Positions 51,165-64,000 of a DNA stretch of 64,000 nucleotides are shown here, in pieces. The stretch is from a phage. A model generated the notes under the pieces. The model did not search any database. It was not told the DNA's origin and saw nothing but the letters and a program-made list of their open reading frames with translations. The DNA lies in the sequence record PZ402305.1; one strand, given 5' to 3'. The position numbers and the translations under genes are program-made. Numbering within the stretch: position 1 is the stretch's first letter; every line of letters starts with the position of its first letter.

Positions 51165-51184
51165 GAGGGGGATTTCTCCCCCTC
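51165..51184 (-). terminator. Terminator-like hairpin after TerD gene
   Basis: Minus-strand gaggggg-agaaau-cccccuc stem-loop 20 nt after the TerD stop; U-tract weak. Confidence 0.4.
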
Positions 51185-51202: not shown

Positions 51203-51805
51203 TTATGGACATTCATACCATTCTTTTTTACCACCGAAGGCCATCACCACATCACAAATATCCAGACCAGCTTTGCCTACACCATATGCTTTCAGCTTCC
51301 ATTCCCCATCTTCACGAACCAAGGAAGCCACGTGGCAGATTGTGTTGCCAGCTACTTCAGGAGCCAGGAAGTCAAAATCCAGAATTTCCACATTGCGCTC
51401 GGAGTCGAAGATTTTAAGCATACCTTCAGAAGCATGACCAAAACGTTTCAGACCTGTATCATCATCAATGGTCAGAACAAAGGCAATCTCTTGTGCATCA
51501 GGAGAGATTTTAGCCAGAGTAATATCAATCTGCTCCATGCTGCCAGTTCCATCACGAACATCGTCACCAGCGAAGGTAGAACGTTCAGGATCAAACTTGT
51601 TAGCATAGCAAACCAGATGACGTGCAGACAGCATTTCAGGATTGCCAGCGGCATTGTGACGACAAACCAGTGCACTTACATCCAGATCCAGTTTAGAATC
51701 AGATTTCCAAGAGAATTCCAGGCGCAGTTCTTTCAGAGCCGGAGCAACCTTCTTCAGGGAAATTTTTTCGCTAGAGCCTTTTTTCAGGGAAATTTTATCA
51801 GTCAT
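51203..51805 (-). CDS. terD: TerD-family protein (tellurite-resistance/stress response TerD domain)
   Basis: 200-aa ORF; collinear with TerD proteins: N-terminal ISLKK repeats, LDLDVSALV, FVLTIDDD and C-terminal GEWKLKAYGVGKAGL. Confidence 0.8.
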   Translation of the reverse strand: MTDKISLKKGSSEKISLKKVAPALKELRLEFSWKSDSKLDLDVSALVCRHNAAGNPEMLSARHLVCYANKFDPERSTFAGDDVRDGTGSMEQIDITLAKISPDAQEIAFVLTIDDDTGLKRFGHASEGMLKIFDSERNVEILDFDFLAPEVAGNTICHVASLVREDGEWKLKAYGVGKAGLDICDVVMAFGGKKEWYECP

Positions 51806-51820: not shown

Positions 51821-52090
51821 TTATTTAAGTGTAATACCAGTTACAGTCAATTCTACTTCCAAAAGCTTAGATGTGTTTTGGATTGATACTAATTGTGCAT
51901 GATGGTTTAGTTCTACAGCAGAATAATCATTTTCCCCATCATCTACTTTTAAATAAACAATAATTTCACTAAGGTCTAAACCATTTTCGTCAAATGCATT
52001 TTCATAGACGAAAGTATCTCCTACATCCAAATCTTTAATAGTAAGGCATCGTTTATTTACTTTTTGCTCATCAATTTCGAAGTTTAACAC
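51821..52090 (-). CDS. Small protein, paralog B of a duplicated ~90-aa family
   Basis: 89-aa ORF, GTG start with AGGAGG RBS; shares DLDVGxTF ... GLD ... TxTGITLK with 53112..53390. Confidence 0.55.
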   Translation of the reverse strand: MLNFEIDEQKVNKRCLTIKDLDVGDTFVYENAFDENGLDLSEIIVYLKVDDGENDYSAVELNHHAQLVSIQNTSKLLEVELTVTGITLK

Positions 52091-52319
52091 TTCTTCCTCC
52101 TAATGTTATCTCCGGTTTGTATATACGAAGAATTATAGCATTTTCATTTTCTTTGTCAACCCATTCTTCATAATCAGGCCATACATGAATCTCTACTCTA
52201 CTTACAATATCTTCCATTCGCACAGTCCCAATGAAATACTCTTTGAGACTGCGCATAATGAAAGCTTCTCTCTCACGCCAATAATTTTCTATGACTTGAG
52301 AGGCAAGCTCGTCGATCAT
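52071..52319 (-). CDS. Hypothetical small protein
   Basis: 82-aa ORF; start overlaps vWA stop (ATGA). Confidence 0.45.
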   Translation of the reverse strand: MIDELASQVIENYWREREAFIMRSLKEYFIGTVRMEDIVSRVEIHVWPDYEEWVDKENENAIILRIYKPEITLGGRSVKLRN

Positions 52320-53110
52320 TTTTTAGCACCTACTTTAACAACCCACTCTCCGAACTCTTCAGATAAGAGTTTGTCATAAAGCTCTGAATCTGTCAAGTCT
52401 AAATCTTTAATGCCAATAAAACCAACATTATCATAAGCATTTGCCAGTTCTTTCAGGAAGCCAAACTTCTCATTACCAACGCCAACCATGAACCAATAAA
52501 TAGGTTTATTCTTATTCTCTTCGATAAGACGACGAACAGCACTAGGATCACCATTCTCACCATCAGTCTGGAAGAATACAACACCAGGGGTAACGTCAGA
52601 ACCTGGTTCAGATACAGCTACAACTTTTTCACGCTCTACAGACACTGTTTCAGTTTTACCAAGCAGACGATTAAAGAAGCCTTTCTTTGGAGCCTCCTCT
52701 TGTACCACTTGTTTAGTGGTAATATATTTAGTAACAGTGCCAAAATACTCATCGTAGATATCCGCCATTACAGGGGCGTAATTTGTTCCACCTCCGATAC
52801 GAACATTACGCATACATTTACCAACATAGTCATCGTAAACATCTGCTGTTGCTGGAGTAAGCTCTTGGGAACTCGTATTGAAGGCCCACATATCAATTTG
52901 TTGATTATCGTCGAACAGCATACCAAAAGGAAGCAGTTTACCTACAAAATCACTCACTACCCCACTAGAATATAGACCATGCATACTACCAGAAATATCT
53001 AGAGCACATGCTACACGAAGAACAATCTTACCTTCATTCAGGTTCTTATTCTTTTTCAGAGAGAAAGCAAGGTTTTCTTGACGTTTTTTCAGGCTGATTT
53101 TCTCGGACAT
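52316..53110 (-). CDS. vWA-domain protein (TerY/TerF-like) with TerD-like N-terminal ISLKK motif
   Basis: 264-aa ORF; MIDAS motif DISGSM at start of a vWA-like domain; N-terminus MSEKISLKK mirrors the TerD N-terminus; AAGGAG RBS. Confidence 0.65.
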   Translation of the reverse strand: MSEKISLKKRQENLAFSLKKNKNLNEGKIVLRVACALDISGSMHGLYSSGVVSDFVGKLLPFGMLFDDNQQIDMWAFNTSSQELTPATADVYDDYVGKCMRNVRIGGGTNYAPVMADIYDEYFGTVTKYITTKQVVQEEAPKKGFFNRLLGKTETVSVEREKVVAVSEPGSDVTPGVVFFQTDGENGDPSAVRRLIEENKNKPIYWFMVGVGNEKFGFLKELANAYDNVGFIGIKDLDLTDSELYDKLLSEEFGEWVVKVGAKK

Positions 53111-53111
53111 A

Positions 53112-53390
53112 TTATTTCTCCTTCTTAAGTGTAATATTGGTAACTTCTAAATCTACTTCCACCATATTTGTATCTGGTGGGATGCAATGAGTATAGCCTC
53201 GTTGTGCTAGTGATCCATTAATACAGATCGCACTGTTTGTGGAATTTTTAATGAACACCAAGTTACGGTAGGTATCCAACCCTGCGTCTTCATAGGCATC
53301 ATAATACATGAATGTGGCCCCTACGTCAAGATCTTCGAAAGCAATAGGTAAATCCTGACTTTTTTCTTCTTGAATATTGAATCTAAACAC
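53112..53390 (-). CDS. Small protein, paralog A of duplicated family (start revised to internal GTG)
   Basis: Internal GTG at 53390 has a GAGGAGG RBS and aligns with the start of paralog B; track start 53456 lacks an RBS. Confidence 0.5.
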   Translation of the reverse strand: MFRFNIQEEKSQDLPIAFEDLDVGATFMYYDAYEDAGLDTYRNLVFIKNSTNSAICINGSLAQRGYTHCIPPDTNMVEVDLEVTNITLKKEK

Positions 53391-53946
53391 GCATACCTCC
53401 TCTACCAATTTTGAAGCCCAAATCGTAAGCTTCCTTAGTGATCTTTTGTAACTCACTTATAGGAAGTGTTACAAGAGGATCATCTTCTTCAATTTCCATC
53501 TTGTCATCTTCTGTTTCAATGAGAGTATTATGCACTTTGTGATAAGGGTTGTCAACACGTTTAAACTTATTCTTTTCTGTGCTGAAAAAACAATCTGGAT
53601 CTTCTTCACCATCACCCCAACCTTGGTTAGGATCTCCGTCAGATTGTTCTGTAGGGATTTCACCTGTAAAGTACTCTTCCAGCACCATAGCGATACCGTC
53701 CCTTGGATTTGAGGAATGCATCAAATCACAAACCTTACTCCAATCCATAGCCCATTCGAACCGTTCACGAACGCCGTTTTCATCCTCCTTTCCAGAGAAA
53801 ACACAACCATAACTATCATAGTTGCCATACATCTCTTCAATAACAACACCGTCCTTCAAAAGAAAGAGATAACAAGGCGATCCGTCGAAAGAAGTAGAAA
53901 GGGCAGCTTTGCCCGATTCTTTGCACAAAAAGCTAAAACAACCCAT
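53383..53946 (-). CDS. Hypothetical acidic protein
   Basis: 187-aa ORF within the Ter-like block; start overlaps upstream stop. Confidence 0.5.
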   Translation of the reverse strand: MGCFSFLCKESGKAALSTSFDGSPCYLFLLKDGVVIEEMYGNYDSYGCVFSGKEDENGVRERFEWAMDWSKVCDLMHSSNPRDGIAMVLEEYFTGEIPTEQSDGDPNQGWGDGEEDPDCFFSTEKNKFKRVDNPYHKVHNTLIETEDDKMEIEEDDPLVTLPISELQKITKEAYDLGFKIGRGGMRV

Positions 53947-54315: not shown

Positions 54316-54509
54316 TACTCCTCCTCATTGAAGTCAATATCTGCAAGGAGTTCGAATTTACGGAAGTTACGACAACCTTCATAAATATAACAATCACGAC
54401 AAACTGCTAGAACACTTGGGGGATATATGCCTCCCATCGGTGCGAATCGTTTTTCGTCATCATAACGGACACCAATGTCTTCATCAATTATATAGATACG
54501 GATTCTCAT
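54315..54509 (-). CDS. Hypothetical small protein
   Basis: 64-aa ORF; start overlaps TelA-like stop. Confidence 0.45.
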   Translation of the reverse strand: MRIRIYIIDEDIGVRYDDEKRFAPMGGIYPPSVLAVCRDCYIYEGCRNFRKFELLADIDFNEEE

Positions 54510-55618
54510 TTACCAAGCCCTCGTTTCACAGCAGCTACCATCCCGTCTTCCAGAGATTGAACTTCATTAATATAATCAACACGAGCAGCACGGGCTTCCG
54601 TATTGATGCGGTTAGTTTCTTCCAGCATCTTAACCAAGTTTTCCTGATCGTGACGCAGAGTTTCAATATCCAACACTTGACGGTTAGCCAGTGCTGCTGC
54701 TTCGATCTGATTCTGTGTGGCAAGATCGCTACCCAGTTTAATTGCCAGGTTAAATTCATCAAGAACGTTATTCTGCGTCTCTGCTGCTTTCATTTGACGT
54801 AAGCTCTCGATATACATTGAGAAGTTAGCAGAGTAAGCAGGAATAACATTATTTACTATGTTACGCGCAGATCGCATTAAGCTTGCAGAAACTTTTTGCA
54901 TACCTTGTACACGCGGTCCCATTTGGACACACAGTAGGCGCAATGCTTTTAAATCTGCAATACGAATCTCCAGAAGATCCAAAGTATCTCGGATCACTTG
55001 TCGCTGTTCTACTGCATCTTCTGGAAGAGCAGCCAAAGCTTGTTCTTCTTTTTCATAGGTTGCTGTTAGAAGCTGCATATCTCGGTTCAAACTTGCAGCA
55101 TATTGTCCAATAGCTTGATGTAGCTTTTCAAGATATACCAAGGAATCTTCTTCTTTGCGAATATCCATTTGAAGGTTCTTTACCAACTCTTCAATACGGT
55201 TATTAACATTATCAAACTCCCCAAACAGGTCTTCTTTCATACCCATAACTTTTTTAATGAGTTTAGTAATACCCTTGCTTTGTTTAATAGAGTTTGGATC
55301 AAGTTGTTTTGCCTGTTTAATCAAAGCTGTGAGTCGTTCACTCATCTGATCGCCTTGATTACTACGTTGATGTTTTAATACCTCGGCATTCAAGGAACGC
55401 AAGGTTGTTCCTGCCTCTGCCCCAATCTCTTCGATCTCTTGTCGGGTCATAGAAGGCAAAACTGGAACTTCTTGCGGTGCCGCTGGTGCATAAACAGGAC
55501 TGGCATCTAACACGCTTGGAGCGAATACAGATTTACTTGCATCTGTTGTTGCAGCAAATACGCTCATTTCAGGCTTCTTCTGACCACCAGTAGCTGCTTT
55601 TAAAAATGGACTTGTCAT
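54506..55618 (-). CDS. TelA-like (toxic anion resistance / KlaB-like) protein, putative
   Basis: 370-aa largely alpha-helical, Gln/Leu/Glu-rich ORF of TelA-typical size, between TerD/vWA and TerC genes; call rests mainly on context. Confidence 0.4.
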   Translation of the reverse strand: MTSPFLKAATGGQKKPEMSVFAATTDASKSVFAPSVLDASPVYAPAAPQEVPVLPSMTRQEIEEIGAEAGTTLRSLNAEVLKHQRSNQGDQMSERLTALIKQAKQLDPNSIKQSKGITKLIKKVMGMKEDLFGEFDNVNNRIEELVKNLQMDIRKEEDSLVYLEKLHQAIGQYAASLNRDMQLLTATYEKEEQALAALPEDAVEQRQVIRDTLDLLEIRIADLKALRLLCVQMGPRVQGMQKVSASLMRSARNIVNNVIPAYSANFSMYIESLRQMKAAETQNNVLDEFNLAIKLGSDLATQNQIEAAALANRQVLDIETLRHDQENLVKMLEETNRINTEARAARVDYINEVQSLEDGMVAAVKRGLGK

Positions 55619-56205
55619 TCTTCATTCTCCTCTTCTGCATCTCTTATATATGGTGAAACACCGTACTCTTTAGCTACTTTAACCCAATCGTCCCATTTAT
55701 ACAACCATAATTTTCCTTCGGTCCCTTCTTTATCTGATTTCAACCACATATTAGGTTGCTTACCTGGGTACATGCGATTAGGTTTACGATTATAACCTCT
55801 AACACATCTTGTCGCAAACCTATCTACCAGAACAAGAACATATTTATACTCGTGGTTCAACGGCTCTTTGGAAGTGGCTTTAGGATTAGCCCCTAATTCT
55901 GCTGCCAGTTTTTGCCAATGAGCACCGTGCCTACTAAACTTACCCATACAACCATCAATAGCATGAGCAATTTCGTGCTTCATTGTATCCACGATCATAT
56001 CTCTTGTGGAGTTCTTATGCAAGTGCCAATTTACAACAACAATTTTATCTCGGTAGTTGCACCAACCGAAAGAGTTATTCACTTTGTTTCTAACACAAGC
56101 TTTATATCCTGCTTCACGTAACATGTTGTAGTAAACAGGAAAATCTTCTTTTATTTCCTGCATCACTTCCCACCACAAGAGTTGCAAGTCTCTCTCGGTA
56201 TGCAT
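55615..56205 (-). CDS. SprT-like zinc metallopeptidase (putative)
   Basis: 196-aa ORF with HEIAH (HExxH) zinc-binding motif and a downstream His. Confidence 0.45.
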   Translation of the reverse strand: MHTERDLQLLWWEVMQEIKEDFPVYYNMLREAGYKACVRNKVNNSFGWCNYRDKIVVVNWHLHKNSTRDMIVDTMKHEIAHAIDGCMGKFSRHGAHWQKLAAELGANPKATSKEPLNHEYKYVLVLVDRFATRCVRGYNRKPNRMYPGKQPNMWLKSDKEGTEGKLWLYKWDDWVKVAKEYGVSPYIRDAEEENEE

Positions 56206-56208
56206 AAC

Positions 56209-56802
56209 TTACACCTTAAAAGTGAAATGCGTGGTCGTGGCTTCAAAATCAGGACCAGATAAACGTGCACTGAAATCTGAAATATTTGTAATTAAAAAGC
56301 TTTTATGCATACCTAACACAGCCACGCTTTCAATATCTTCTACTAACATTTCAATCATGTTAGAAACATGGCTGAACGTAGAGTTTTGTTTTTTGATGGT
56401 GTAGAAAGAAAGATTCCCACCTGCTGTATAAGATACCTCTTCAAAATCTTTAATCGTATATTGTGTGCCATCAGTAAAGAAAATGGTAGCTTTATTCGTA
56501 GCACGTTTCTTGTTTTTTGGTCCTTTTTTACGTTTACTGCGAGTAGGCAAACCGTTTGGGAACACCATAGCTACAAATTCTTCAGCAGAAACCTCCTTAC
56601 CGAAATCATAACCATAAGAGACAGCATCTATAAACTCGTCATCTTCATTTTTAAAATAATGGAAATAGGGCCAATTTGAAAGATTATCAAGCATCTTATG
56701 CTCGTCCACAGCAGAGAATGTATCCCTCAAAGCGCGTGTGATTTGCAAAGCATTAGGCAACCTTTTAACACCTACGATGGAAGTACGAATAGAAATTGTC
56801 AT
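56209..56802 (-). CDS. Hypothetical protein
   Basis: 197-aa ORF with AAGGAG RBS; Lys-rich central segment. Confidence 0.5.
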   Translation of the reverse strand: MTISIRTSIVGVKRLPNALQITRALRDTFSAVDEHKMLDNLSNWPYFHYFKNEDDEFIDAVSYGYDFGKEVSAEEFVAMVFPNGLPTRSKRKKGPKNKKRATNKATIFFTDGTQYTIKDFEEVSYTAGGNLSFYTIKKQNSTFSHVSNMIEMLVEDIESVAVLGMHKSFLITNISDFSARLSGPDFEATTTHFTFKV

Positions 56803-56816
56803 TGTTTTTCTCCTTA

Positions 56817-57254
56817 TTAACGTCGCTTGCTACGAGATGAACTCTTTTTACTTAAAGGGCTATTGTAAGATTTACGAGTTGTATAGCTACTATTTGTTTT
56901 AAAAGTTTGTCTCGGCTTTTCATAAGTTTTTATCTCTGGCTTAGGCTTACCATAAAAATTAGTTTTCGGTTTAGGTGTGTTATAATGTTTATTAATAATC
57001 GTTCTGTTATCGTTATAATCCCCGCTGCTACGATTACTACCGCCACTCATCATATGCCCTAACAACATACCTGTAGCAAACTCACCAACACCGCTACTAC
57101 TAGAACCGCCACCATTGTTGATAATAGTTGTATCTCCGTCAGATCCTTGTTGAGCGTATTGTTGAGGAGGTTGTTGGTATTGTGCAGGATTTGTTTCATC
57201 CTCGCAAGCTGTTAAAAAGATACAGCCAATTAAAATCAGGGCTAGTTTTTTCAT
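56817..57254 (-). CDS. Lipoprotein (start revised to ATG 57254)
   Basis: Signal peptide MKKLALILIGCIFLTAC with lipobox LTAC; internal ATG has GAGGA RBS; mature part Gln/Pro/Gly/Ser-rich. Confidence 0.5.
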   Translation of the reverse strand: MKKLALILIGCIFLTACEDETNPAQYQQPPQQYAQQGSDGDTTIINNGGGSSSSGVGEFATGMLLGHMMSGGSNRSSGDYNDNRTIINKHYNTPKPKTNFYGKPKPEIKTYEKPRQTFKTNSSYTTRKSYNSPLSKKSSSRSKRR

Positions 57255-57441
57255 ATTTGCTTTCCTCATTTTGACTATTAATACATCTGTGTTTGAAATC
57301 TCCAGAGAAGCAATAAAGTTGCTCTCCATCTCGGTATAAACTCACTTTACTGCCGTTGATTACGCTTGTCAATACAAAAATTACAACAAACAACCCTATT
57401 GCAAAACAAATATTTTCAAACACAATCAACAAGTATTTCAT
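57196..57441 (-). CDS. Small membrane protein (uncertain)
   Basis: 81-aa ORF with N-terminal hydrophobic helix; ATGA coupling to upstream gene; 3' end overlaps the lipoprotein start. Confidence 0.3.
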   Translation of the reverse strand: MKYLLIVFENICFAIGLFVVIFVLTSVINGSKVSLYRDGEQLYCFSGDFKHRCINSQNEESKYEKTSPDFNWLYLFNSLRG

Positions 57442-57788
57442 TTTAAAAATACCTCATCATCAGTTTCATTATCCCAGAAGAACAAATCCCAACCATTCGG
57501 ATCATTCCATTTGGCTGCTGGAGAAGTCCATATTTGTTCGATATCAATATTCAAAACTTCACCGTTTCGTTTTGAAACAGCTTTAGTTAATTCCCAACGA
57601 GATACAGGCTCTACTTCCCCTGAACCACTCCCACAACAAGCTACCACGTTAGGAGGCAAATTAATTGGATCTTTGGTCACGATCATAACGCTTACCCCAG
57701 GGTAAACTTTTGAAAGATAATCTAAAACGTAATCCACATCACCAGATAAATCCCAAACAAGTTCTTGAATTTCATCAAAATTATTCAT
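57438..57788 (-). CDS. Hypothetical acidic protein
   Basis: 116-aa ORF with AGGAGAG RBS just after the TerC terminator. Confidence 0.5.
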   Translation of the reverse strand: MNNFDEIQELVWDLSGDVDYVLDYLSKVYPGVSVMIVTKDPINLPPNVVACCGSGSGEVEPVSRWELTKAVSKRNGEVLNIDIEQIWTSPAAKWNDPNGWDLFFWDNETDDEVFLK

Positions 57789-57799
57789 AAGTCTCTCCT

Positions 57800-57824
57800 A
57801 TAAAATAGCCTCCCGAAGGAGGCT
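57800..57824 (-). terminator. Rho-independent terminator after TerC gene
   Basis: Minus-strand agccucc-uucg-ggaggcu stem-loop followed by AUUUUAU. Confidence 0.6.
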
Positions 57825-57830
57825 CATCTA

Positions 57831-58805
57831 TTAAACAGCAGCTTCTTCTTTTTCAGGGAAGATAAAGCTTGCAATAACACCAAGAGCTAATGTGCCTAGA
57901 ACAATCATCAGACTTACGTTAGGGGAAATATCATGCGGGAGGAATGACCACTTGGCATGAAGTGTTTCACCGAACGGGTGATACATAAGTTTAGCACCGA
58001 CAAATACCAGAACCACAGCAACAGCTTTCTCTAAGTGAACCAGATATTTCACAGCCACACTTAACACAAAGAAAAGTGCACGTAAACCAAGAACAGCCAT
58101 CAGCATTGCAGAATAAACTAGCAGAGGTTCTTGTGTCACACCGATCACAGCCGGAACTGAATCAAAAGAGAAGACAATATCTGTAAGCTCAATAACAAAC
58201 ACACAAAGAAGAGCAGGAGTTGCATATTTAATACCATTCTTAATGGTGATGAACTTTTCACCATCCAGTGCATTGTGCACAGGCAGAACTTTACCTACTA
58301 AACGAACAGCCCAATGCTTAGAGTAATCAATATCCTCTTCTTCGTCACCACCTTTGATGATAGCCACGGCAGACCAAGCTACAATCAAACCGAACAACAC
58401 TTGGACCGACCAATGAAGGTTAAACAAAGCGGTCCCTGCTGCAACAAAAATACCTCGGAAGACAATGGCTCCTGCAATTCCCCAAAGTAAAATCTTATGT
58501 TGGAGATGTGTGCTCTTAATTCCAAAGCTTGCAAAAATTGCCATGAACACCATCAGGTTATCTACAGAAAGACTCTTTTCCAACACATAGCCACTTAGGA
58601 AAAGCGCGGCAAACTCTTTACCATGTTCTACCCAAATGAATGCGTAATATCCTAAAGCTAAAGCAATCCAAAAAACAGACCAAAGCAAAGCAGATTTAAT
58701 TCCAATTTCTTTATTCTCTTTATGACCAAAGAAATCAATACCAATAGACAATGCTAAAATACCAACTAAAACAACTACATCAATAATGGGGAAACCAAGT
58801 TGCAT
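57831..58805 (-). CDS. terC: TerC-family integral membrane protein
   Basis: 324-aa ORF with multiple TM helices and the TerC-family signature EKSLSVDN. Confidence 0.75.
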   Translation of the reverse strand: MQLGFPIIDVVVLVGILALSIGIDFFGHKENKEIGIKSALLWSVFWIALALGYYAFIWVEHGKEFAALFLSGYVLEKSLSVDNLMVFMAIFASFGIKSTHLQHKILLWGIAGAIVFRGIFVAAGTALFNLHWSVQVLFGLIVAWSAVAIIKGGDEEEDIDYSKHWAVRLVGKVLPVHNALDGEKFITIKNGIKYATPALLCVFVIELTDIVFSFDSVPAVIGVTQEPLLVYSAMLMAVLGLRALFFVLSVAVKYLVHLEKAVAVVLVFVGAKLMYHPFGETLHAKWSFLPHDISPNVSLMIVLGTLALGVIASFIFPEKEEAAV

Positions 58806-58824
58806 TATTTTCTCCTTTCTCTTT

Positions 58825-58843
58825 GCGGGGAACCACTCCCCGC
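58825..58843 (-). promoter_or_regulatory. 5' leader stem-loop upstream of TerC start
   Basis: gcgggga-guggu-uccccgc hairpin between predicted -10 and the AAGGAG RBS. Confidence 0.3.
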
Positions 58844-58855
58844 CTCATGTGATAC

Positions 58856-58883
58856 ATCTTACTCTATTCTAAAACTTTGTCAA
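58856..58883 (-). promoter_or_regulatory. Sigma70-like promoter (TTGACA-N16-TAAGAT) dedicated to TerC
   Basis: -35 at 58878-58883 and -10 at 58856-58861 on minus strand, 50-nt leader to ATG at 58805. Confidence 0.5.
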
Positions 58884-58886
58884 CAC

Positions 58887-59108
58887 TTATTTTGAAGAAC
58901 TTGAGGAAAAGATCCCACGTAGTACAGCCATGATAAATGCCACACACACCACAGTCCAGAAGGTGACAGGAACAGTGATATCTGTGTGACCCATCATTTC
59001 AACAACGTAGTTATAAGCCAGCAGCAGAAGCCATGCTGGAATCATACTAATCAGAAAAGCAATAACAAACACAATAATCACTGCAAGAATACCTGCTAAA
59101 ACGTCCAT
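58887..59108 (-). CDS. Small membrane protein (two TM helices)
   Basis: 73-aa hydrophobic ORF (MDVLAGILAVIIVFVIAFLISMIPAWLLLLAY...). Confidence 0.5.
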   Translation of the reverse strand: MDVLAGILAVIIVFVIAFLISMIPAWLLLLAYNYVVEMMGHTDITVPVTFWTVVCVAFIMAVLRGIFSSSSSK

Positions 59109-59121
59109 AATATTTCTCCTC

Positions 59122-59595
59122 TTAAAGTTTATAAATAGTCACATCGTGACCTGTTTTTACTAAAGTTTCTTCAATCATCACTTCAATGATAGCCCAATTA
59201 CCTCCTGCCAACCCTGCTCCAATCATAGGTAAGCCGATCTTACATTTTTGGTCACGGAGAAGCAAATCGTTAGCCATAGCTATTAGTGCATCGTAAAGTG
59301 CATCATAGTCCAACTGACGACCTTTAGCATTGTATCCGTAACGGTATTGCCCGTATAGATTATATACCAAAGGGTCTGATTGTTCGTCTGGCACCCCTAA
59401 ACTAAAACAACCTAGTTTACTTTGATCACCAGCCATTGTGTCTAAGTCTGCTGCATATGCGTAAGGAAATGCTTGTTTGATTTGTGGGGCAATACCTGCC
59501 CCCATATTACACATACAGTTGCAACAATGAGCAATAACAGTTACTTCACCTGCTTTAGCGGCATCAATAAGATTACCTGTTTTCATTTTAAGCAT
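59122..59595 (-). CDS. Macro-domain protein (ADP-ribose binding/processing, putative; start revised to ATG 59595)
   Basis: Macro-like motifs VIAHCCNCMCNMGAGIA and GLPMIGAGLAGGNW; ATG at 59595 has AAGGAG RBS just after the PRTase stop. Confidence 0.45.
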   Translation of the reverse strand: MLKMKTGNLIDAAKAGEVTVIAHCCNCMCNMGAGIAPQIKQAFPYAYAADLDTMAGDQSKLGCFSLGVPDEQSDPLVYNLYGQYRYGYNAKGRQLDYDALYDALIAMANDLLLRDQKCKIGLPMIGAGLAGGNWAIIEVMIEETLVKTGHDVTIYKL

Positions 59596-59608
59596 TTTTA
59601 GCTCCTTA

Positions 59609-60436
59609 TTACAGAATGTGTTGTTTTGTGTAACGATCCAAGAATTCAAAGTTTTCAGCATACTTTGAAATTCGGTTGTAACCTTCTCCCAAGCATCCAA
59701 AGAAAAGTTGCTCTACATAGTAATGTGGCAATTGGCTAAGAATGATTTTGAAGTCTTCATGATTTTGGCCCATAAGATACTTAATAGGACGAACAAGACA
59801 CTGTGCATCACGTTCTTCATTAATCATTTTAACAAACGCTTCTGGTGTATTAATGTAGTTAAAATTCAGTTTAGCTTCGGTATCTGCTTGATTACCTTCA
59901 TATTTTGCAAAATACAGGAAGTAAACATCATTTTTAACTTGATTTTCATTAAGGATCTCAATCAGTTTGTCTTCATGCGTTCCAGTGATATTTACATCAT
60001 CAATGAATACAAGCTTCTTATCACCCCAGAATTCTTTGTTACAGTAGAATGTATCCCCATCAATAAGTTTCTTACGACTAGCTTTATCCAAGAAACCATA
60101 ATCGTTGATATAGCTAACTTTACGATGAATAATGTCCAGTTCTGCTGAACGACCTTGATCATATTGTGCTTGCAACATATTAAAGTAATTAATAAAATGA
60201 TCTGTCATCATTGTTGCAGCATTATGCACATGGTTGTAAGGAGAAGGAATGATAACAAATTGTTCCCCAATATGTTTCATTGCCACTTGAGCAAAAAACT
60301 GAAGTGCCAATTCTTTACCCATACGACGCGCAGCTTGGTTACTACCAAATTTCAATTTTGAATAATCTTGGATATCAAAAGTAGCAGTTTCCAGGTCATC
60401 AAATTTATTTGCAAAAATTTGAGTTTGATTACGCAT
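59609..60436 (-). CDS. Phosphoribosyltransferase (type I PRTase fold) domain protein
   Basis: 275-aa ORF with PRPP-binding signature KKLVFIDDVNITGTHEDKL. Confidence 0.55.
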   Translation of the reverse strand: MRNQTQIFANKFDDLETATFDIQDYSKLKFGSNQAARRMGKELALQFFAQVAMKHIGEQFVIIPSPYNHVHNAATMMTDHFINYFNMLQAQYDQGRSAELDIIHRKVSYINDYGFLDKASRKKLIDGDTFYCNKEFWGDKKLVFIDDVNITGTHEDKLIEILNENQVKNDVYFLYFAKYEGNQADTEAKLNFNYINTPEAFVKMINEERDAQCLVRPIKYLMGQNHEDFKIILSQLPHYYVEQLFFGCLGEGYNRISKYAENFEFLDRYTKQHIL

Positions 60437-61085
60437 TTACAATTTCTCCTCTTTTAAGTTTCTCTAGTAAGTCGTTAGGGTTCTTAATATGACAGAAGTT
60501 AAACCCTAAGTCAACACATTTTCCATCATATTCTTCACTATCGCCTACGTGCAACACTTCGTGCCCTAACAGAGGGATCGGAGAATACGTGAGCGTGCGA
60601 GCAAAGAATCGCGGATCTGGTTTACAAAGTAAAGCTTCATCCGAGAAATGGGTGAACTCAAAACAATTCCAACTATCAAACTTACAAGCACGACGCAGAA
60701 TATCCCCTGATATGAAGTTGGTATTGCTCTTAATACTCAAATCATAACGCCCAGAAAGATACAGCAAGTACATCGGCAGATCTACGGCTACGTGTGGTGG
60801 AAACTTAAGAAACCACTGTTCACACTCGAAACGAAGCTTTGCAGACTTCCAAGGCGTTATCCCAAGTTCAGAACCAAGTCTTTCCCAGGCGTATGCTGCA
60901 CACTCGGCTTTGCCTTGAAGTGCTGCATTATCCAGTTCCTTTTTGATCTTTTTATAAGCTGCTCTTGCTTCAACTTCCGTAATATCTCCATATTTTGCGA
61001 TAGTCCAGGCTCGCATGTCTGCGTAATTGGAGTTTGCTGTGATCAGTGTGTTCCATACATCAAAAGAGATATGTTTAATAGTCAT
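60429..61085 (-). CDS. HAD-superfamily hydrolase (phosphatase-like)
   Basis: 218-aa ORF with HAD motif I-like FDVWNTL, motif III-like KPDPRFF and motif IV-like VGDSEEYD. Confidence 0.55.
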   Translation of the reverse strand: MTIKHISFDVWNTLITANSNYADMRAWTIAKYGDITEVEARAAYKKIKKELDNAALQGKAECAAYAWERLGSELGITPWKSAKLRFECEQWFLKFPPHVAVDLPMYLLYLSGRYDLSIKSNTNFISGDILRRACKFDSWNCFEFTHFSDEALLCKPDPRFFARTLTYSPIPLLGHEVLHVGDSEEYDGKCVDLGFNFCHIKNPNDLLEKLKRGEIVNA

Positions 61086-61912: not shown

Positions 61913-62383
61913 TTAATCTGATTGCCAACCACTTGCCGTTTTGGTCCATAATCTTTGATTATCTGACCCTCTGAAAGGTTTTGTAGTTGGATTGTTTATT
62001 TCATACTTTCCGTCTACAATAATGTCAACAAGATTTTTAATATACAAAGGCACTTCCTCAAAAGTATATCCTGTATACACCATTATATCTTTGCTTGACC
62101 CATAAACATCTCTAACCTTTTCTATAAGGTTTTTAACATTGTAAATATTCTGCGGATCTAATGGCTCTCCTCCTAAAATTGTTAAACCTTTTACAAACGG
62201 TCTTGACAAATCTTTTAAAACTTGCTCTACATTTTCGTGAGTAAACGGTTTCCCATAAGAATAAGACCAGGCTTTTTGGTTAAAACAGCCACGACAACCG
62301 TGGCTACAACCACTAACCCAGAGTGAGCACCTAACTCCCTCGCCATTAATAAGATCTACAGGTTCATATCCTGCAAAATTCAA
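61913..62383 (-). CDS. nrdG: Anaerobic ribonucleotide reductase activating protein (radical SAM)
   Basis: 156-aa ORF with CxxxCxxC radical-SAM cluster motif (CSHGCRGC); ATGA-coupled to nrdD. Confidence 0.8.
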   Translation of the reverse strand: MNFAGYEPVDLINGEGVRCSLWVSGCSHGCRGCFNQKAWSYSYGKPFTHENVEQVLKDLSRPFVKGLTILGGEPLDPQNIYNVKNLIEKVRDVYGSSKDIMVYTGYTFEEVPLYIKNLVDIIVDGKYEINNPTTKPFRGSDNQRLWTKTASGWQSD

Positions 62384-64000
62384 AGATGTTTCTCCCTTTG
62401 CAAAACTTCCTGCATTTTACCTTTGTTGTAAGGGCGTGAATTAGGGGCAGAAAGATACCCTGACACACGTCTAACTACAGAAATAGTTTCTTCTTCATGG
62501 TTGCCACAATCAGGACACTCAAACCCTTTAGCCGTTGCCTTAAATTCTCCATGAAAACCACACTTAAAGCATTGATCCACGGGCTGATTAATACCAAAAT
62601 AGTGAATATGTTCATAAGCGTAGTCTACTAAAGTCTCCAAAGCTTCTAAGTTATTCTTTAAGTTTGGTGTTTCGACATAACTTATGTTACCACCATTACT
62701 AATCTGTGCAAAACCTGCTTCATAATCCCATTTTTCAAAAGGATTTGTTACCAGCCATACAGGTTGATGAAAAGAGTTAGTAAGATAGTCTCTTTCTACC
62801 AAACCTGGGTATTTTTCATTTAAAGCTGTTGCAAACTTATAGCACAAGGATTCTGCTGGAGTTCCATAGAGACTAAACGCCAGCTTAGATCGTTCTTTAA
62901 ACACAGCACACACATCTTTCATATGTTGCAGAATGCTTTTACCAAGTTCCTTTTTATCTTTTTCTTCTGGATAAAGGATTTCCAAAGCTTCGGCAAGACC
63001 TACATAACCAATACTAATAGAAGCATAACCACCTTCAAACAAAACACCAATTTCATCATTGGCATTTAAACGCGCTAAAGCCCCTTCCATGAAAAGAATA
63101 GGGTTTTCAGATGCTTTGGTATGTCTGATACGGTTTACACGTAGCATGTGAGCATCATAGGCTATCTCCATATGTTTATTAAGAAGATCGGTGAAAGATT
63201 CTCCTTTACTTCTCGCTTCCGCAGCGATCAGAGGTAAGTTGATAGAAACTACTCCAAGGTTGAATCGTCCATCGTATTTTTCTCCTTGTTCGGTGGCATA
63301 GTACGACAAAAAGGAACGACAACCCATACTCGTAACAGTACCATCTGCTGATCCCGTAACTTCTTTGTTCAAAGGAACAGAAATAAAATCTGGATAAATA
63401 CGATCAGCACAACATGCCAAAGCTTGTTGCTTAAGATCATAGTTAGGATCACTAGGTTTCATGTTAACACCTTCTTGTAAAAAGAAAATAACTTTAGGGA
63501 ATACAGGCGTTACATGATCTTTGCCTAGACCGTTACTATGCACTTTAAGATAGTTGGCTGTGATCATTCTGCCAAAAACAGAGGTATCCAGACCCATACT
63601 GATTGTAATAAAAGGAGATTGTCCATTAACACTCATTAAAGTATTAACCTGATACAAGAGAGTTTGCATAGCATCGTATACATCTTGTTCGGTCATTTCT
63701 AGGGCTTCTTTCCTTGCATAACAACCGTAGCGACGTTTGGTTATCTCCATGTTTTTAAGGAAACTAGCTTCAACATAAGGACTAAGACCTTTATCAATGT
63801 GCGCACACGTCTGACCTCCATACTGACTGGAGGCAACAGCTTGGATGATTTGAGTTAGCACTGTGGTAGCTACTCCAATAGATTTTGGTTTTTCTATCTG
63901 TGCAGCACCGATCTTAAAACCATTTTCTAACATATCTTGATAATTAACAAGACAACAGTTTGTAAGAGGAGAGAGCAGATAATCCAAGTCGTGAATATGT
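62380..64000 (-). CDS. nrdD: Anaerobic ribonucleoside-triphosphate reductase, C-terminal part (N-terminus beyond window end)
   Basis: Reading frame stays open to position 64000; C-terminal glycyl-radical motif RVSGYL and zinc ribbon CFKCGF ... CPDCGN. Confidence 0.8.
   Translation of the reverse strand, partial: HIHDLDYLLSPLTNCCLVNYQDMLENGFKIGAAQIEKPKSIGVATTVLTQIIQAVASSQYGGQTCAHIDKGLSPYVEASFLKNMEITKRRYGCYARKEALEMTEQDVYDAMQTLLYQVNTLMSVNGQSPFITISMGLDTSVFGRMITANYLKVHSNGLGKDHVTPVFPKVIFFLQEGVNMKPSDPNYDLKQQALACCADRIYPDFISVPLNKEVTGSADGTVTSMGCRSFLSYYATEQGEKYDGRFNLGVVSINLPLIAAEARSKGESFTDLLNKHMEIAYDAHMLRVNRIRHTKASENPILFMEGALARLNANDEIGVLFEGGYASISIGYVGLAEALEILYPEEKDKKELGKSILQHMKDVCAVFKERSKLAFSLYGTPAESLCYKFATALNEKYPGLVERDYLTNSFHQPVWLVTNPFEKWDYEAGFAQISNGGNISYVETPNLKNNLEALETLVDYAYEHIHYFGINQPVDQCFKCGFHGEFKATAKGFECPDCGNHEEETISVVRRVSGYLSAPNSRPYNKGKMQEVLQREKHL

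What the first reader, a model, noticed from the sequence alone, without database searches (positions are those of the whole stretch)
51821..53390. Duplicated module: ~90-aa paralog upstream of each TerD-type gene
Two small proteins (53112-53390 and 51821-52090) are clear paralogs (shared DLDVGxTF(M/V)Y ... GLD ... TxTGITLK). Each lies just upstream of a gene whose product starts with the TerD-like (S/T)xKISLKK motif: the vWA protein and TerD respectively. This looks like a tandem duplication of a two-gene cassette in which the downstream partner diverged (TerD domain versus vWA). The small proteins have no family I recognise and could be dedicated partners or regulators of TerD-type proteins.
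Basis: seen in the sequence. Interest (0 to 1): 0.6.

Follow-up and report, generated by a model that had tools for sequence, protein, structure and literature searches.

The report
Duplicated small partner genes in phage Ter cluster
Two diverged copies of a roughly 90-residue protein of unknown function sit beside the vWA and TerD genes of a coliphage "tellurite-resistance" (Ter) cluster; the copies are real and probably accessory partners of those genes, but only the small gene was duplicated, not a two-gene cassette.

Summary
The window is a phAPEC8-like coliphage (Phapecoctavirus), about 99% identical to many deposited genomes. The 92-aa (53112-53390) and 89-aa (51821-52090) proteins are paralogs: 34% identity, E 2e-14, both full-length matches to phrog_11278 (unknown function). 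One lies directly upstream of a vWA-TerF-like gene, the other upstream of TerD.

The family is tiny, with 20 representatives among 1.84 billion proteins. Its members are acidic and are predicted to form an SH3-like beta-barrel. In all 13 distant relatives whose contig was looked up, the small gene sits at the vWA/TerD junction, usually as vWA-small-TerD.

Some related phages keep vWA and TerD without it, so it is an accessory rather than a core part.

The cassette-duplication idea fails. vWA and TerD are unrelated folds. Their shared N-terminal "ISLKK" motif is a general feature of both families and is predicted helical in the vWA protein. An unrelated 82-aa gene separates the two "cassettes", and relatives carry 0, 1 or 2 small copies next to an unchanged vWA-TerD pair.

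Small B and TerD lie behind the only perfect sigma-70 consensus promoter in the window. The function remains inferred, most likely a non-enzymatic adaptor or regulator of the vWA-TerD pair.

The parts
53112..53390 (-). Small A: 92-aa acidic protein (pI 4.4), phrog_11278, predicted SH3-like beta-barrel. GTG start overlaps the end of the 187-aa gene by 8 nt. Its C-terminal KKEK codons (AAGAAGGAGAAA) are the Shine-Dalgarno sequence of the vWA gene.
52316..53110 (-). vWA-TerF-like protein, 264 aa, with MIDAS residues (DISGSM ... T109 ... D183). It has an N-terminal 30-residue extension carrying the KISLKK...FSLKK motif (predicted helix 7-20) and a long inserted beta-hairpin arm (about residues 125-169).
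52071..52319 (-). 82-aa gene of unknown function (phrog_22387), found only in loci that also carry small B. It is unrelated to the small family and to the 187-aa protein, and it contains the promoter that faces small B.
52132..52159 (-). Perfect sigma-70 consensus with extended -10 (TTGACA-16 nt-TG-n-TATAAT), 42 nt upstream of the small B start codon. It is the only exact match in the 64-kb window, and both hexamers are invariant in all two-copy loci despite about 33% nucleotide divergence of the surrounding gene.
51821..52090 (-). Small B: 89-aa acidic protein (pI 4.3), phrog_11278, paralog of small A. GTG start, very AT-rich (GC 0.30, GC3 0.19). Its phAPEC8 ortholog model in BFVD matches the small A model at TM 0.82-0.84.
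51203..51805 (-). TerD-domain protein, 200 aa, strongly host-adapted codon usage (17 of 19 Leu codons are CTG).
51165..51184 (-). G+C-rich 8-bp stem-loop 19 nt after the TerD stop codon (-17.2 kcal/mol, z -3.2). It has no U-tract, so it is a possible but non-canonical end of the small B-TerD transcription unit.
53383..53946 (-). 187-aa gene of unknown function (phrog_14928) upstream of small A. It is present in phi92 and PsgM04F but absent from phiWec179, L013 and 05F01. It contains an 11/12 promoter-like site (53527-53555) that is also present in phi92.
54506..61085 (-). Rest of the phage Ter cluster (context): TelA 54506-55618, SprT-like 55615-56205, TerC 57831-58805, Macro 59122-59595, PRTase_3 59609-60436, HAD-like (weak hit) 60429-61085.

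Best explanation
The two ORFs are diverged paralogs of a lineage-restricted family of acidic, non-enzymatic SH3-like beta-barrel proteins of about 90 residues (PHROG 11278). The family is an accessory component of the vWA-TerD core of the Ter cluster in phAPEC8/phi92-like myoviruses and their uncultured relatives. The widespread and probably older slot is promoter > small > TerD, directly after the vWA gene; small B occupies it. Small A is a duplicate of the small gene alone, placed ahead of the vWA gene and translationally coupled to it. Mechanism (inferred, not shown): each copy is made together with its downstream neighbour and binds the vWA protein and/or TerD as an adaptor or regulator. 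One possibility is that a conserved loop acidic residue (the GLD motif) is offered to the vWA MIDAS metal. Another is that the protein docks on the Lys-rich N-terminal segments of vWA and TerD. Low codon adaptation relative to TerD suggests a sub-stoichiometric, regulatory role. Shown: paralogy, fold class, distribution, gene order, purifying selection, promoter consensus. Inferred: physical interaction, direction of the duplication, function.
Against: All carriers belong to one syntenic phage lineage, so conserved position may partly reflect common descent rather than selection for linkage. The family is dispensable: KP13-26 and FBKp34 (Stephanstirmvirinae) and Caulobacter and Brevundimonas phages have vWA and TerD without it. 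The GLD aspartate is not invariant; it is replaced in P0028 and P0035. The neighbour-joining tree does not resolve which slot is ancestral: A clade 74% bootstrap, B clade 56%, deeper nodes unsupported. Codon usage differs sharply from TerD, which argues against a 1:1 complex with TerD.
Confidence: 0.55

Rival explanations
1. One reading: a two-gene cassette (small gene plus TerD-type gene) was duplicated in tandem and the downstream partner of one copy diverged into the vWA protein.
For: Each small paralog directly precedes a gene whose product starts with xKISLKK. Each pair may form its own promoter-led unit: a 12/12 promoter before small B and an 11/12 promoter-like site before small A.
Against: vWA and TerD are different folds with no similarity beyond the first 20-29 residues. 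The motif lies outside the vWA domain, is general to bacterial vWA-TerF proteins and TerD-vWA fusions, and is predicted helical in the vWA protein. The vWA-TerD pair exists without the small gene. Relatives show the small gene alone changing copy number and position. An unrelated 82-aa gene interrupts the supposed tandem.
Confidence: 0.04
2. The small proteins are unrelated fast-evolving phage accessory genes (for example host-takeover or anti-defence factors) that sit at the vWA/TerD junction only through inherited synteny, with no functional tie to Ter proteins.
For: The genes are dispensable in close relatives with intact vWA-TerD. They have high dN/dS and low identity compared with their neighbours. 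All carriers share one overall gene order. Codon usage is unlike that of TerD.
Against: Other small ORFs in the same interval turn over between lineages while this family persists. After duplication or relocation it is always within one gene of vWA or TerD, in four different arrangements. Start and stop codons are tightly coupled to those of vWA or TerD.
Confidence: 0.3
3. Small B is not a functional protein but a translated or untranslated leader between the strong promoter and TerD, and small A is likewise a leader for the vWA gene.
For: Small B is very AT-rich (GC3 0.19) and lies exactly between a perfect promoter and a codon-optimised TerD. The tail of small A encodes the vWA Shine-Dalgarno sequence.
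Against: dN/dS is below 1. ORF length is conserved at 87-93 aa and the hydrophobic core pattern is kept down to about 22% identity. The predicted fold is confident and shared by A and B. phi92, KP13-26 and FBKp34 have promoter-like sites directly before TerD with no such leader.
Confidence: 0.05

Closest known systems
PHROG family phrog_11278 (unknown function)
   Same: Both window proteins match the 92-position profile end to end (E 4e-51 and 7e-45), so the family and its implicit paralogy are already catalogued.
   Different: The PHROG carries no annotation. The fold, the distribution, the link to vWA/TerD and the copy-number variation have not been described in anything I could find.
Phage-encoded Ter systems (Iyer et al. 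2021, PMC7824862; phiKp34 cluster, PMC8386662)
   Same: The same component set is present here: TerD, TerC, TelA, TerF-type vWA, PRTase and a HAD-like protein. Those papers propose roles in superinfection conflict or stress resistance, with TelA and vWA forming sub-membrane structures and TerD acting as a ligand sensor.
   Different: The passages of those papers retrieved by keyword list no small SH3-like component. The Caulobacter and Brevundimonas jumbo phages and FBKp34 lack the family.
TerF (TerD-vWA fusion) of bacterial ter operons
   Same: TerF shows that TerD and this vWA type work together. The fusions P0094 and P0097 carry the same hSLxK...hSLxK segment directly before the vWA domain.
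   Different: In the phage the two domains are separate genes, and a small extra protein is encoded beside or between them. No bacterial ter locus with the small family was found.
SH3-like small beta-barrels (ribosomal L2 C-domain, FeoA, DtxR/IdeR SH3-like domain, EF-P/KOW, Tudor, HspQ)
MIDAS-ligand pairs such as integrin I-domain ligands or MDN1-MIDAS with the NLE1 UBL domain
   Same: The phage vWA model resembles these MIDAS domains. It is established knowledge that in those systems a small domain or loop gives an acidic side chain to the MIDAS metal. The small family has a conserved loop Asp (GLD).
   Different: This is purely an analogy. No complex was modelled or measured here.

Membership tests
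phrog_11278 | Full-length significant match to the family profile | tested here: met
   A: E 4.2e-51, residues 1-92 on profile 1-92. B: E 7e-45, residues 1-89 on profile 1-89.
SH3-like small beta-barrel (fold class) | Five-stranded small barrel whose top structural neighbours are SH3-like domains | tested here: met
FeoA / KOW / Tudor / SH3 sequence families | Match to the family's Pfam profile above threshold | tested here: not met
   No Pfam hit for A. For B only a sub-threshold DUF5006 hit, E 0.046. The PDB profile search gave only nanobody noise at E above 1.
TerD family (for the small proteins) | Match to PF02342 | tested here: not met
   No hit for either small protein.
TerD family (gene 51203-51805) | Match to PF02342 above the gathering score | tested here: met
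   98.9 bits against a cut-off of 25.3, residues 5-179.
vWA-TerF-like (gene 52316-53110) | Match to PF10138 and an intact MIDAS motif (DxSxS...T...D) | tested here: met
   130 bits against a cut-off of 29.4. D38, S42, T109 and D183 are invariant and S40 is nearly invariant in a 38-sequence alignment. The model matches integrin I-domains and the MDN1 MIDAS domain.
Tandemly duplicated two-gene cassette | Upstream members are homologous to each other | tested here: met
Tandemly duplicated two-gene cassette | Downstream members are homologous over their length | tested here: not met
   Only residues 1-29 align, E 0.013. The Pfam families and folds differ.
Tandemly duplicated two-gene cassette | Copy number of the upstream and downstream genes changes together among relatives | tested here: not met
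   There are 0, 1 or 2 small genes beside a constant single vWA gene, almost always with a single TerD. The one extra TerD copy, in FBKp34, comes with no small gene.
Ter stress-response / conflict system (Anantharaman-Aravind sense) | Clustered TerD, TerC, TelA and TerF-type vWA with PRTase and HAD genes | tested here: met
   Pfam hits. The HAD hit is weak (E 4e-4, below the cut-off). Whether the small family is a functional member of the system is not testable with these tools.
Known anti-phage defence system proteins (PADLOC) | Match to any PADLOC model | tested here: not met
   No hits for small A, small B, vWA, TerD, the 82-aa protein or the 187-aa protein at E up to 1.

The most novel reading that the evidence does not exclude
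The small SH3-like proteins are specific ligands of the vWA MIDAS site and/or the Lys-rich N-termini of the vWA protein and TerD, and they set the assembly state or target of the phage vWA-TerD complex. The two paralogs would have specialised, one for vWA and one for TerD. Their fast evolution would reflect an arms race with a host or competing-phage factor. If so, they would be a first defined protein partner of TerD and TerF-type proteins, whose biochemical function has been unclear for decades, and a practical handle for pull-downs and structures.
Probability: 0.2. Interest if true: 0.55.

Novelty: new variant of a known kind. Interest (0 to 1): 0.33.

Why it matters
Ter clusters (TerD, TerC, TelA, TerF-vWA) are widespread in bacteria, plasmids and large phages and affect tellurite, colicin and phage resistance, yet what TerD and the TerF-type vWA protein bind is unknown. 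A small, easily expressed protein encoded directly next to them and co-transcribed with them is an obvious candidate interaction partner. It can be tested in well-studied coliphages (phAPEC8, phi92). Nature has also supplied comparison genomes with zero, one or two copies. If there is no interaction, this is just another lineage-specific small phage gene family, already present as an unannotated PHROG.

Tried and rejected
- **The search for related loci with family alignments A4 and A3:** no stretch was conserved enough to search with. With A1, IMG/VR gave no confirmed locus and the GTDB genomes gave only a 99%-identical MAG contig.
- **afdb50 fold library:** not available.
- **Anantharaman et al. 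2012 Ter paper:** not held. The literature searches found nothing on these small genes.
- **Was the unit [upstream gene + small] duplicated instead?** The 82-aa protein does not match the 187-aa protein by BLAST (E 0.057 over 12 residues) or by hhalign (probability 1.9%). It also does not match the small family (0.2%). Rejected.
- **Cultured phages with the vWA-small-TerD arrangement:** tblastn with P0033, P0027 and P0031 found none, only weak cross-hits to Stephanstirmvirinae.
- **Neighbour-joining tree to date the duplication:** the deep nodes are unsupported, so the direction of duplication rests on parsimony only.
- **Ca-binding DxDxG reading of DLDVGD:** rejected, because D20 and D22 vary across the family.
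- **Nucleic-acid-binding reading of the L2/KOW-like fold:** rejected as unlikely, because every member is acidic.

Full report
**What the window is.** A 3-kb stretch around the finding is 99% identical to many Phapecoctavirus (phAPEC8-like, Stephanstirmvirinae) coliphage genomes. All genes in this part lie on the minus strand. The order, in the direction of transcription, is:
- HAD-like (weak hit), PRTase_3, Macro, TerC, several unknown genes, SprT-like, TelA, three tiny ORFs
- a 187-aa protein
- small A (92 aa)
- vWA-TerF-like protein (264 aa)
- an 82-aa protein
- small B (89 aa)
- TerD (200 aa)
- endolysin

. This is a fairly complete phage-borne Ter cluster of the kind described for large phages (PMC7824862; PMC8386662).

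**Check of the observation.**
- The two ORFs have the coordinates given and carry the same limits in GenBank records, always as "hypothetical protein".
- They are paralogs: 34% identity over the full length, E 2e-14. Both are end-to-end matches to one PHROG, phrog_11278, of unknown function.
- Small A stops 1 nt before the vWA ATG. Its conserved KKEK tail is encoded by the vWA Shine-Dalgarno sequence. Small B stops 15 nt before the TerD ATG.
- Both downstream products start xKISLKK.
- The ORFs behave as genes. dN/dS is 0.19-0.57 for A and 0.26-0.42 for B, against 0.05-0.17 for vWA and 0.00-0.12 for TerD.

**What the small proteins are.**
- No Pfam, NCBIfam or PADLOC family matches them.
- The family is very small: 22 clusters in a 5.8-billion-protein set and 20 representatives at E below 1e-3 among 1.84 billion. 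All but two truncated fragments and one 1191-aa repeat protein (a weak hit to a short repeated segment) are 87-93 aa.
- A 21-sequence alignment gave a confident AF2 model (pLDDT 85, pTM 0.75): a floppy N-terminal arm, five strands and one short helix.
- The independent BFVD model of the phAPEC8 ortholog of small B superposes on the small A model at TM 0.82-0.84.
- All members are acidic (pI 4.3-5.5) and share no conserved Cys, His or catalytic-looking set. The best-conserved positions are M1, F4, L21, G24, F27, the GLD loop (G37, L38, D39), K48, N58 and V83.
- This points to a protein-binding module rather than an enzyme or a nucleic-acid binder.

**Comparative gene order.** This is the most informative evidence.

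| Arrangement | Gene order | Where seen |
|---|---|---|
| I | small - vWA - ~81 aa - small - TerD | window, phiWec179, PsgM04F, Schickermooser, L013/L014 |
| II | small - vWA - TerD | phi92, Klebsiella phage 05F01 |
| III | vWA - small - TerD | 10 metagenomic loci (8 distinct proteins, 22-31% identical to small A) |
| IV | vWA - small - small - TerD | L012, L015, L016 |
| None | vWA and TerD, no family member, by a maximally sensitive HMM search | KP13-26, FBKp34, Caulobacter and Brevundimonas jumbo phages |

- All 13 distant representatives looked up sit directly upstream of TerD. Wherever the contig shows the upstream side (all but L007), they sit directly after vWA.
- Between TelA and the endolysin, only vWA, the small gene and TerD persist across lineages. 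The other small ORFs are replaced.
- In the cultured-phage collection, 127 records carry the family against 210 that carry a vWA-TerF-like gene.
- The family is therefore a lineage-specific, dispensable, fast-evolving companion of the vWA-TerD pair.

The claim that a two-gene cassette was duplicated and one partner diverged does not hold.
- The vWA and TerD proteins share only their first 20-29 residues and are different folds.
- The shared double hSLxK motif lies outside the vWA domain, which starts at residue 31.
- The motif is present in a bacterial stand-alone vWA-TerF protein and directly before the vWA domain in TerD-vWA fusions.
- In a pLDDT-92.6 model of the phage vWA protein it is an alpha-helix (residues 7-20), not the strand pair that, from my knowledge of TerD structures rather than any test here, it forms in TerD.
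- The vWA-TerD pair is older than, and independent of, the small gene, as the comparative table shows.
- The 82-aa gene that comes with small B is unrelated to the 187-aa gene before small A and to the small family.
- So only the small gene was duplicated. Parsimony favours the slot just before TerD as ancestral. On that reading, the A copy arose in the ancestor of Stephanstirmvirinae, and B was later lost in the phi92 and 05F01 lineages. The neighbour-joining tree is too weak to prove this: A clade 74% bootstrap, B clade 56%.

**Transcription units.**
- The only exact TTGACA-N16-18-TATAAT match in the 64-kb window lies at 52159-52132 on the minus strand. It has an extended -10 TG and sits inside the 82-aa gene, 42 nt before the small B start codon. 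The expected number of chance matches in the window is 0.09.
- Both hexamers are invariant in every arrangement-I locus, although the surrounding gene is only 59-60% identical at the protein level.
- TerD, which follows small B, has 17 of 19 Leu codons as CTG, against 0 of 12 in small B and 0 of 7 in small A. A strong stem-loop without a U-tract follows TerD.
- Promoter-like sites occupy the equivalent place in other lineages: directly before TerD in phi92, KP13-26 and FBKp34, and in the 3' end of vWA before the small gene in L008, L009 and L012.
- An 11/12 site precedes small A in the window, phi92 and phiWec179.
- So small B and TerD are probably co-transcribed from a strong host-type promoter, and small A and vWA are translationally coupled. 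In that organisational sense there are two parallel pairs, even though they did not arise as a duplicated pair.
- The codon contrast suggests that small B is made in much lower amounts than TerD.

**Most likely function.** Each step is marked as shown or inferred.
- Shown: paralogy, fold class, acidity, purifying selection, restricted distribution, constant placement at the vWA/TerD junction, coupling signals.
- Inferred: the proteins bind vWA and/or TerD as adaptors or regulators.
- Two concrete possibilities follow. The conserved loop Asp could engage the vWA MIDAS metal, as ligands of integrin I-domains and of the MDN1 MIDAS domain do (analogy only; one search shows the structural resemblance of the vWA model). 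Alternatively, the acidic barrel could dock on the Lys-rich N-terminal segments of vWA and TerD.
- The main rival is that these are unrelated accessory genes held in place by synteny. It keeps substantial weight (0.3), because the family is dispensable and all carriers are related.

**Novelty and interest.** The genes are annotated (as hypothetical) in more than 100 genomes, and the family is an existing PHROG, so the sequences are not new. What appears undescribed is the fold, the strict association with the vWA-TerD junction, the copy-number variants and the promoter arrangement. This is a modest, testable lead on Ter biology rather than a new kind of system.

Noticed in passing
window 52132-52159 (-): The only perfect sigma-70 consensus promoter (with extended -10) in the 64-kb window is embedded in the coding sequence of the 82-aa gene and faces small B-TerD. 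Both hexamers are invariant in diverged relatives.
   Followed up: partly
window 51203-51805 (-): TerD has strikingly host-optimised codons (17 of 19 Leu codons are CTG; GC 0.45), while its neighbours have 0-38% CTG. This suggests very high expression of TerD alone.
   Followed up: partly
window 52316-53110 (-), residues ~125-169 and 1-30: The vWA-TerF-like protein is predicted to carry a long two-stranded beta-arm (strands 125-141 and 153-169) inserted in the vWA fold. Its N-terminal amphipathic helix is formed by the KISLKK...FSLKK segment, which the Pfam model does not cover.
   Followed up: partly
L012 1800-2783 versus window 57831-58805: The TerC of a distant metagenomic relative is 81% identical to the window TerC, although its TerD, vWA and TelA are only 35-46% identical. 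This may reflect recent exchange or independent capture of a host-like terC.
   Followed up: no
P0009 (metagenome contig, 55 aa): A natural deletion variant fuses the first 22 residues of the 187-aa protein to the last 33 residues of small A.
   Followed up: no
L021 2885-3148 (Klebsiella phage FBKp34 gp129): An 87-aa protein two genes upstream of the vWA gene has an FEVGDVF motif that resembles the family's LDVGDTF, but it is not detectably homologous (HMM E 6.5). It may be an analogous small barrel.
   Followed up: no
L024 2781-4462 (Escherichia phage WPEC2): In this record the vWA, 82-aa and small B region is broken into many short ORFs. This is probably due to sequencing or assembly errors rather than biology.
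   Followed up: no
(records MG065650, OR584014, OP562383, MH252123): Records named Campylobacter, Pseudomonas, Acinetobacter and Klebsiella phages are 99% identical to, or share gene order with, E. coli Phapecoctavirus genomes. The host labels may be wrong or reflect contamination.
   Followed up: no
L027 2095-2574: In one vWA-small-TerD relative, a Band_7 (SPFH) membrane-scaffold gene directly follows TerD. This fits a membrane-associated role for the module.
   Followed up: no
window 59122-61085 and 61913-63987 (-): Upstream of TerC lie Macro, PRTase_3 and weak HAD-like genes, the predicted nucleotide-derivative arm of Ter systems. These are followed by the anaerobic ribonucleotide reductase genes NrdG and NrdD.
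   Followed up: partly
window 51165-51184 (-): A G+C-rich 8-bp hairpin follows TerD (-17.2 kcal/mol, z -3.2) but lacks the U-run of an intrinsic terminator.
   Followed up: partly
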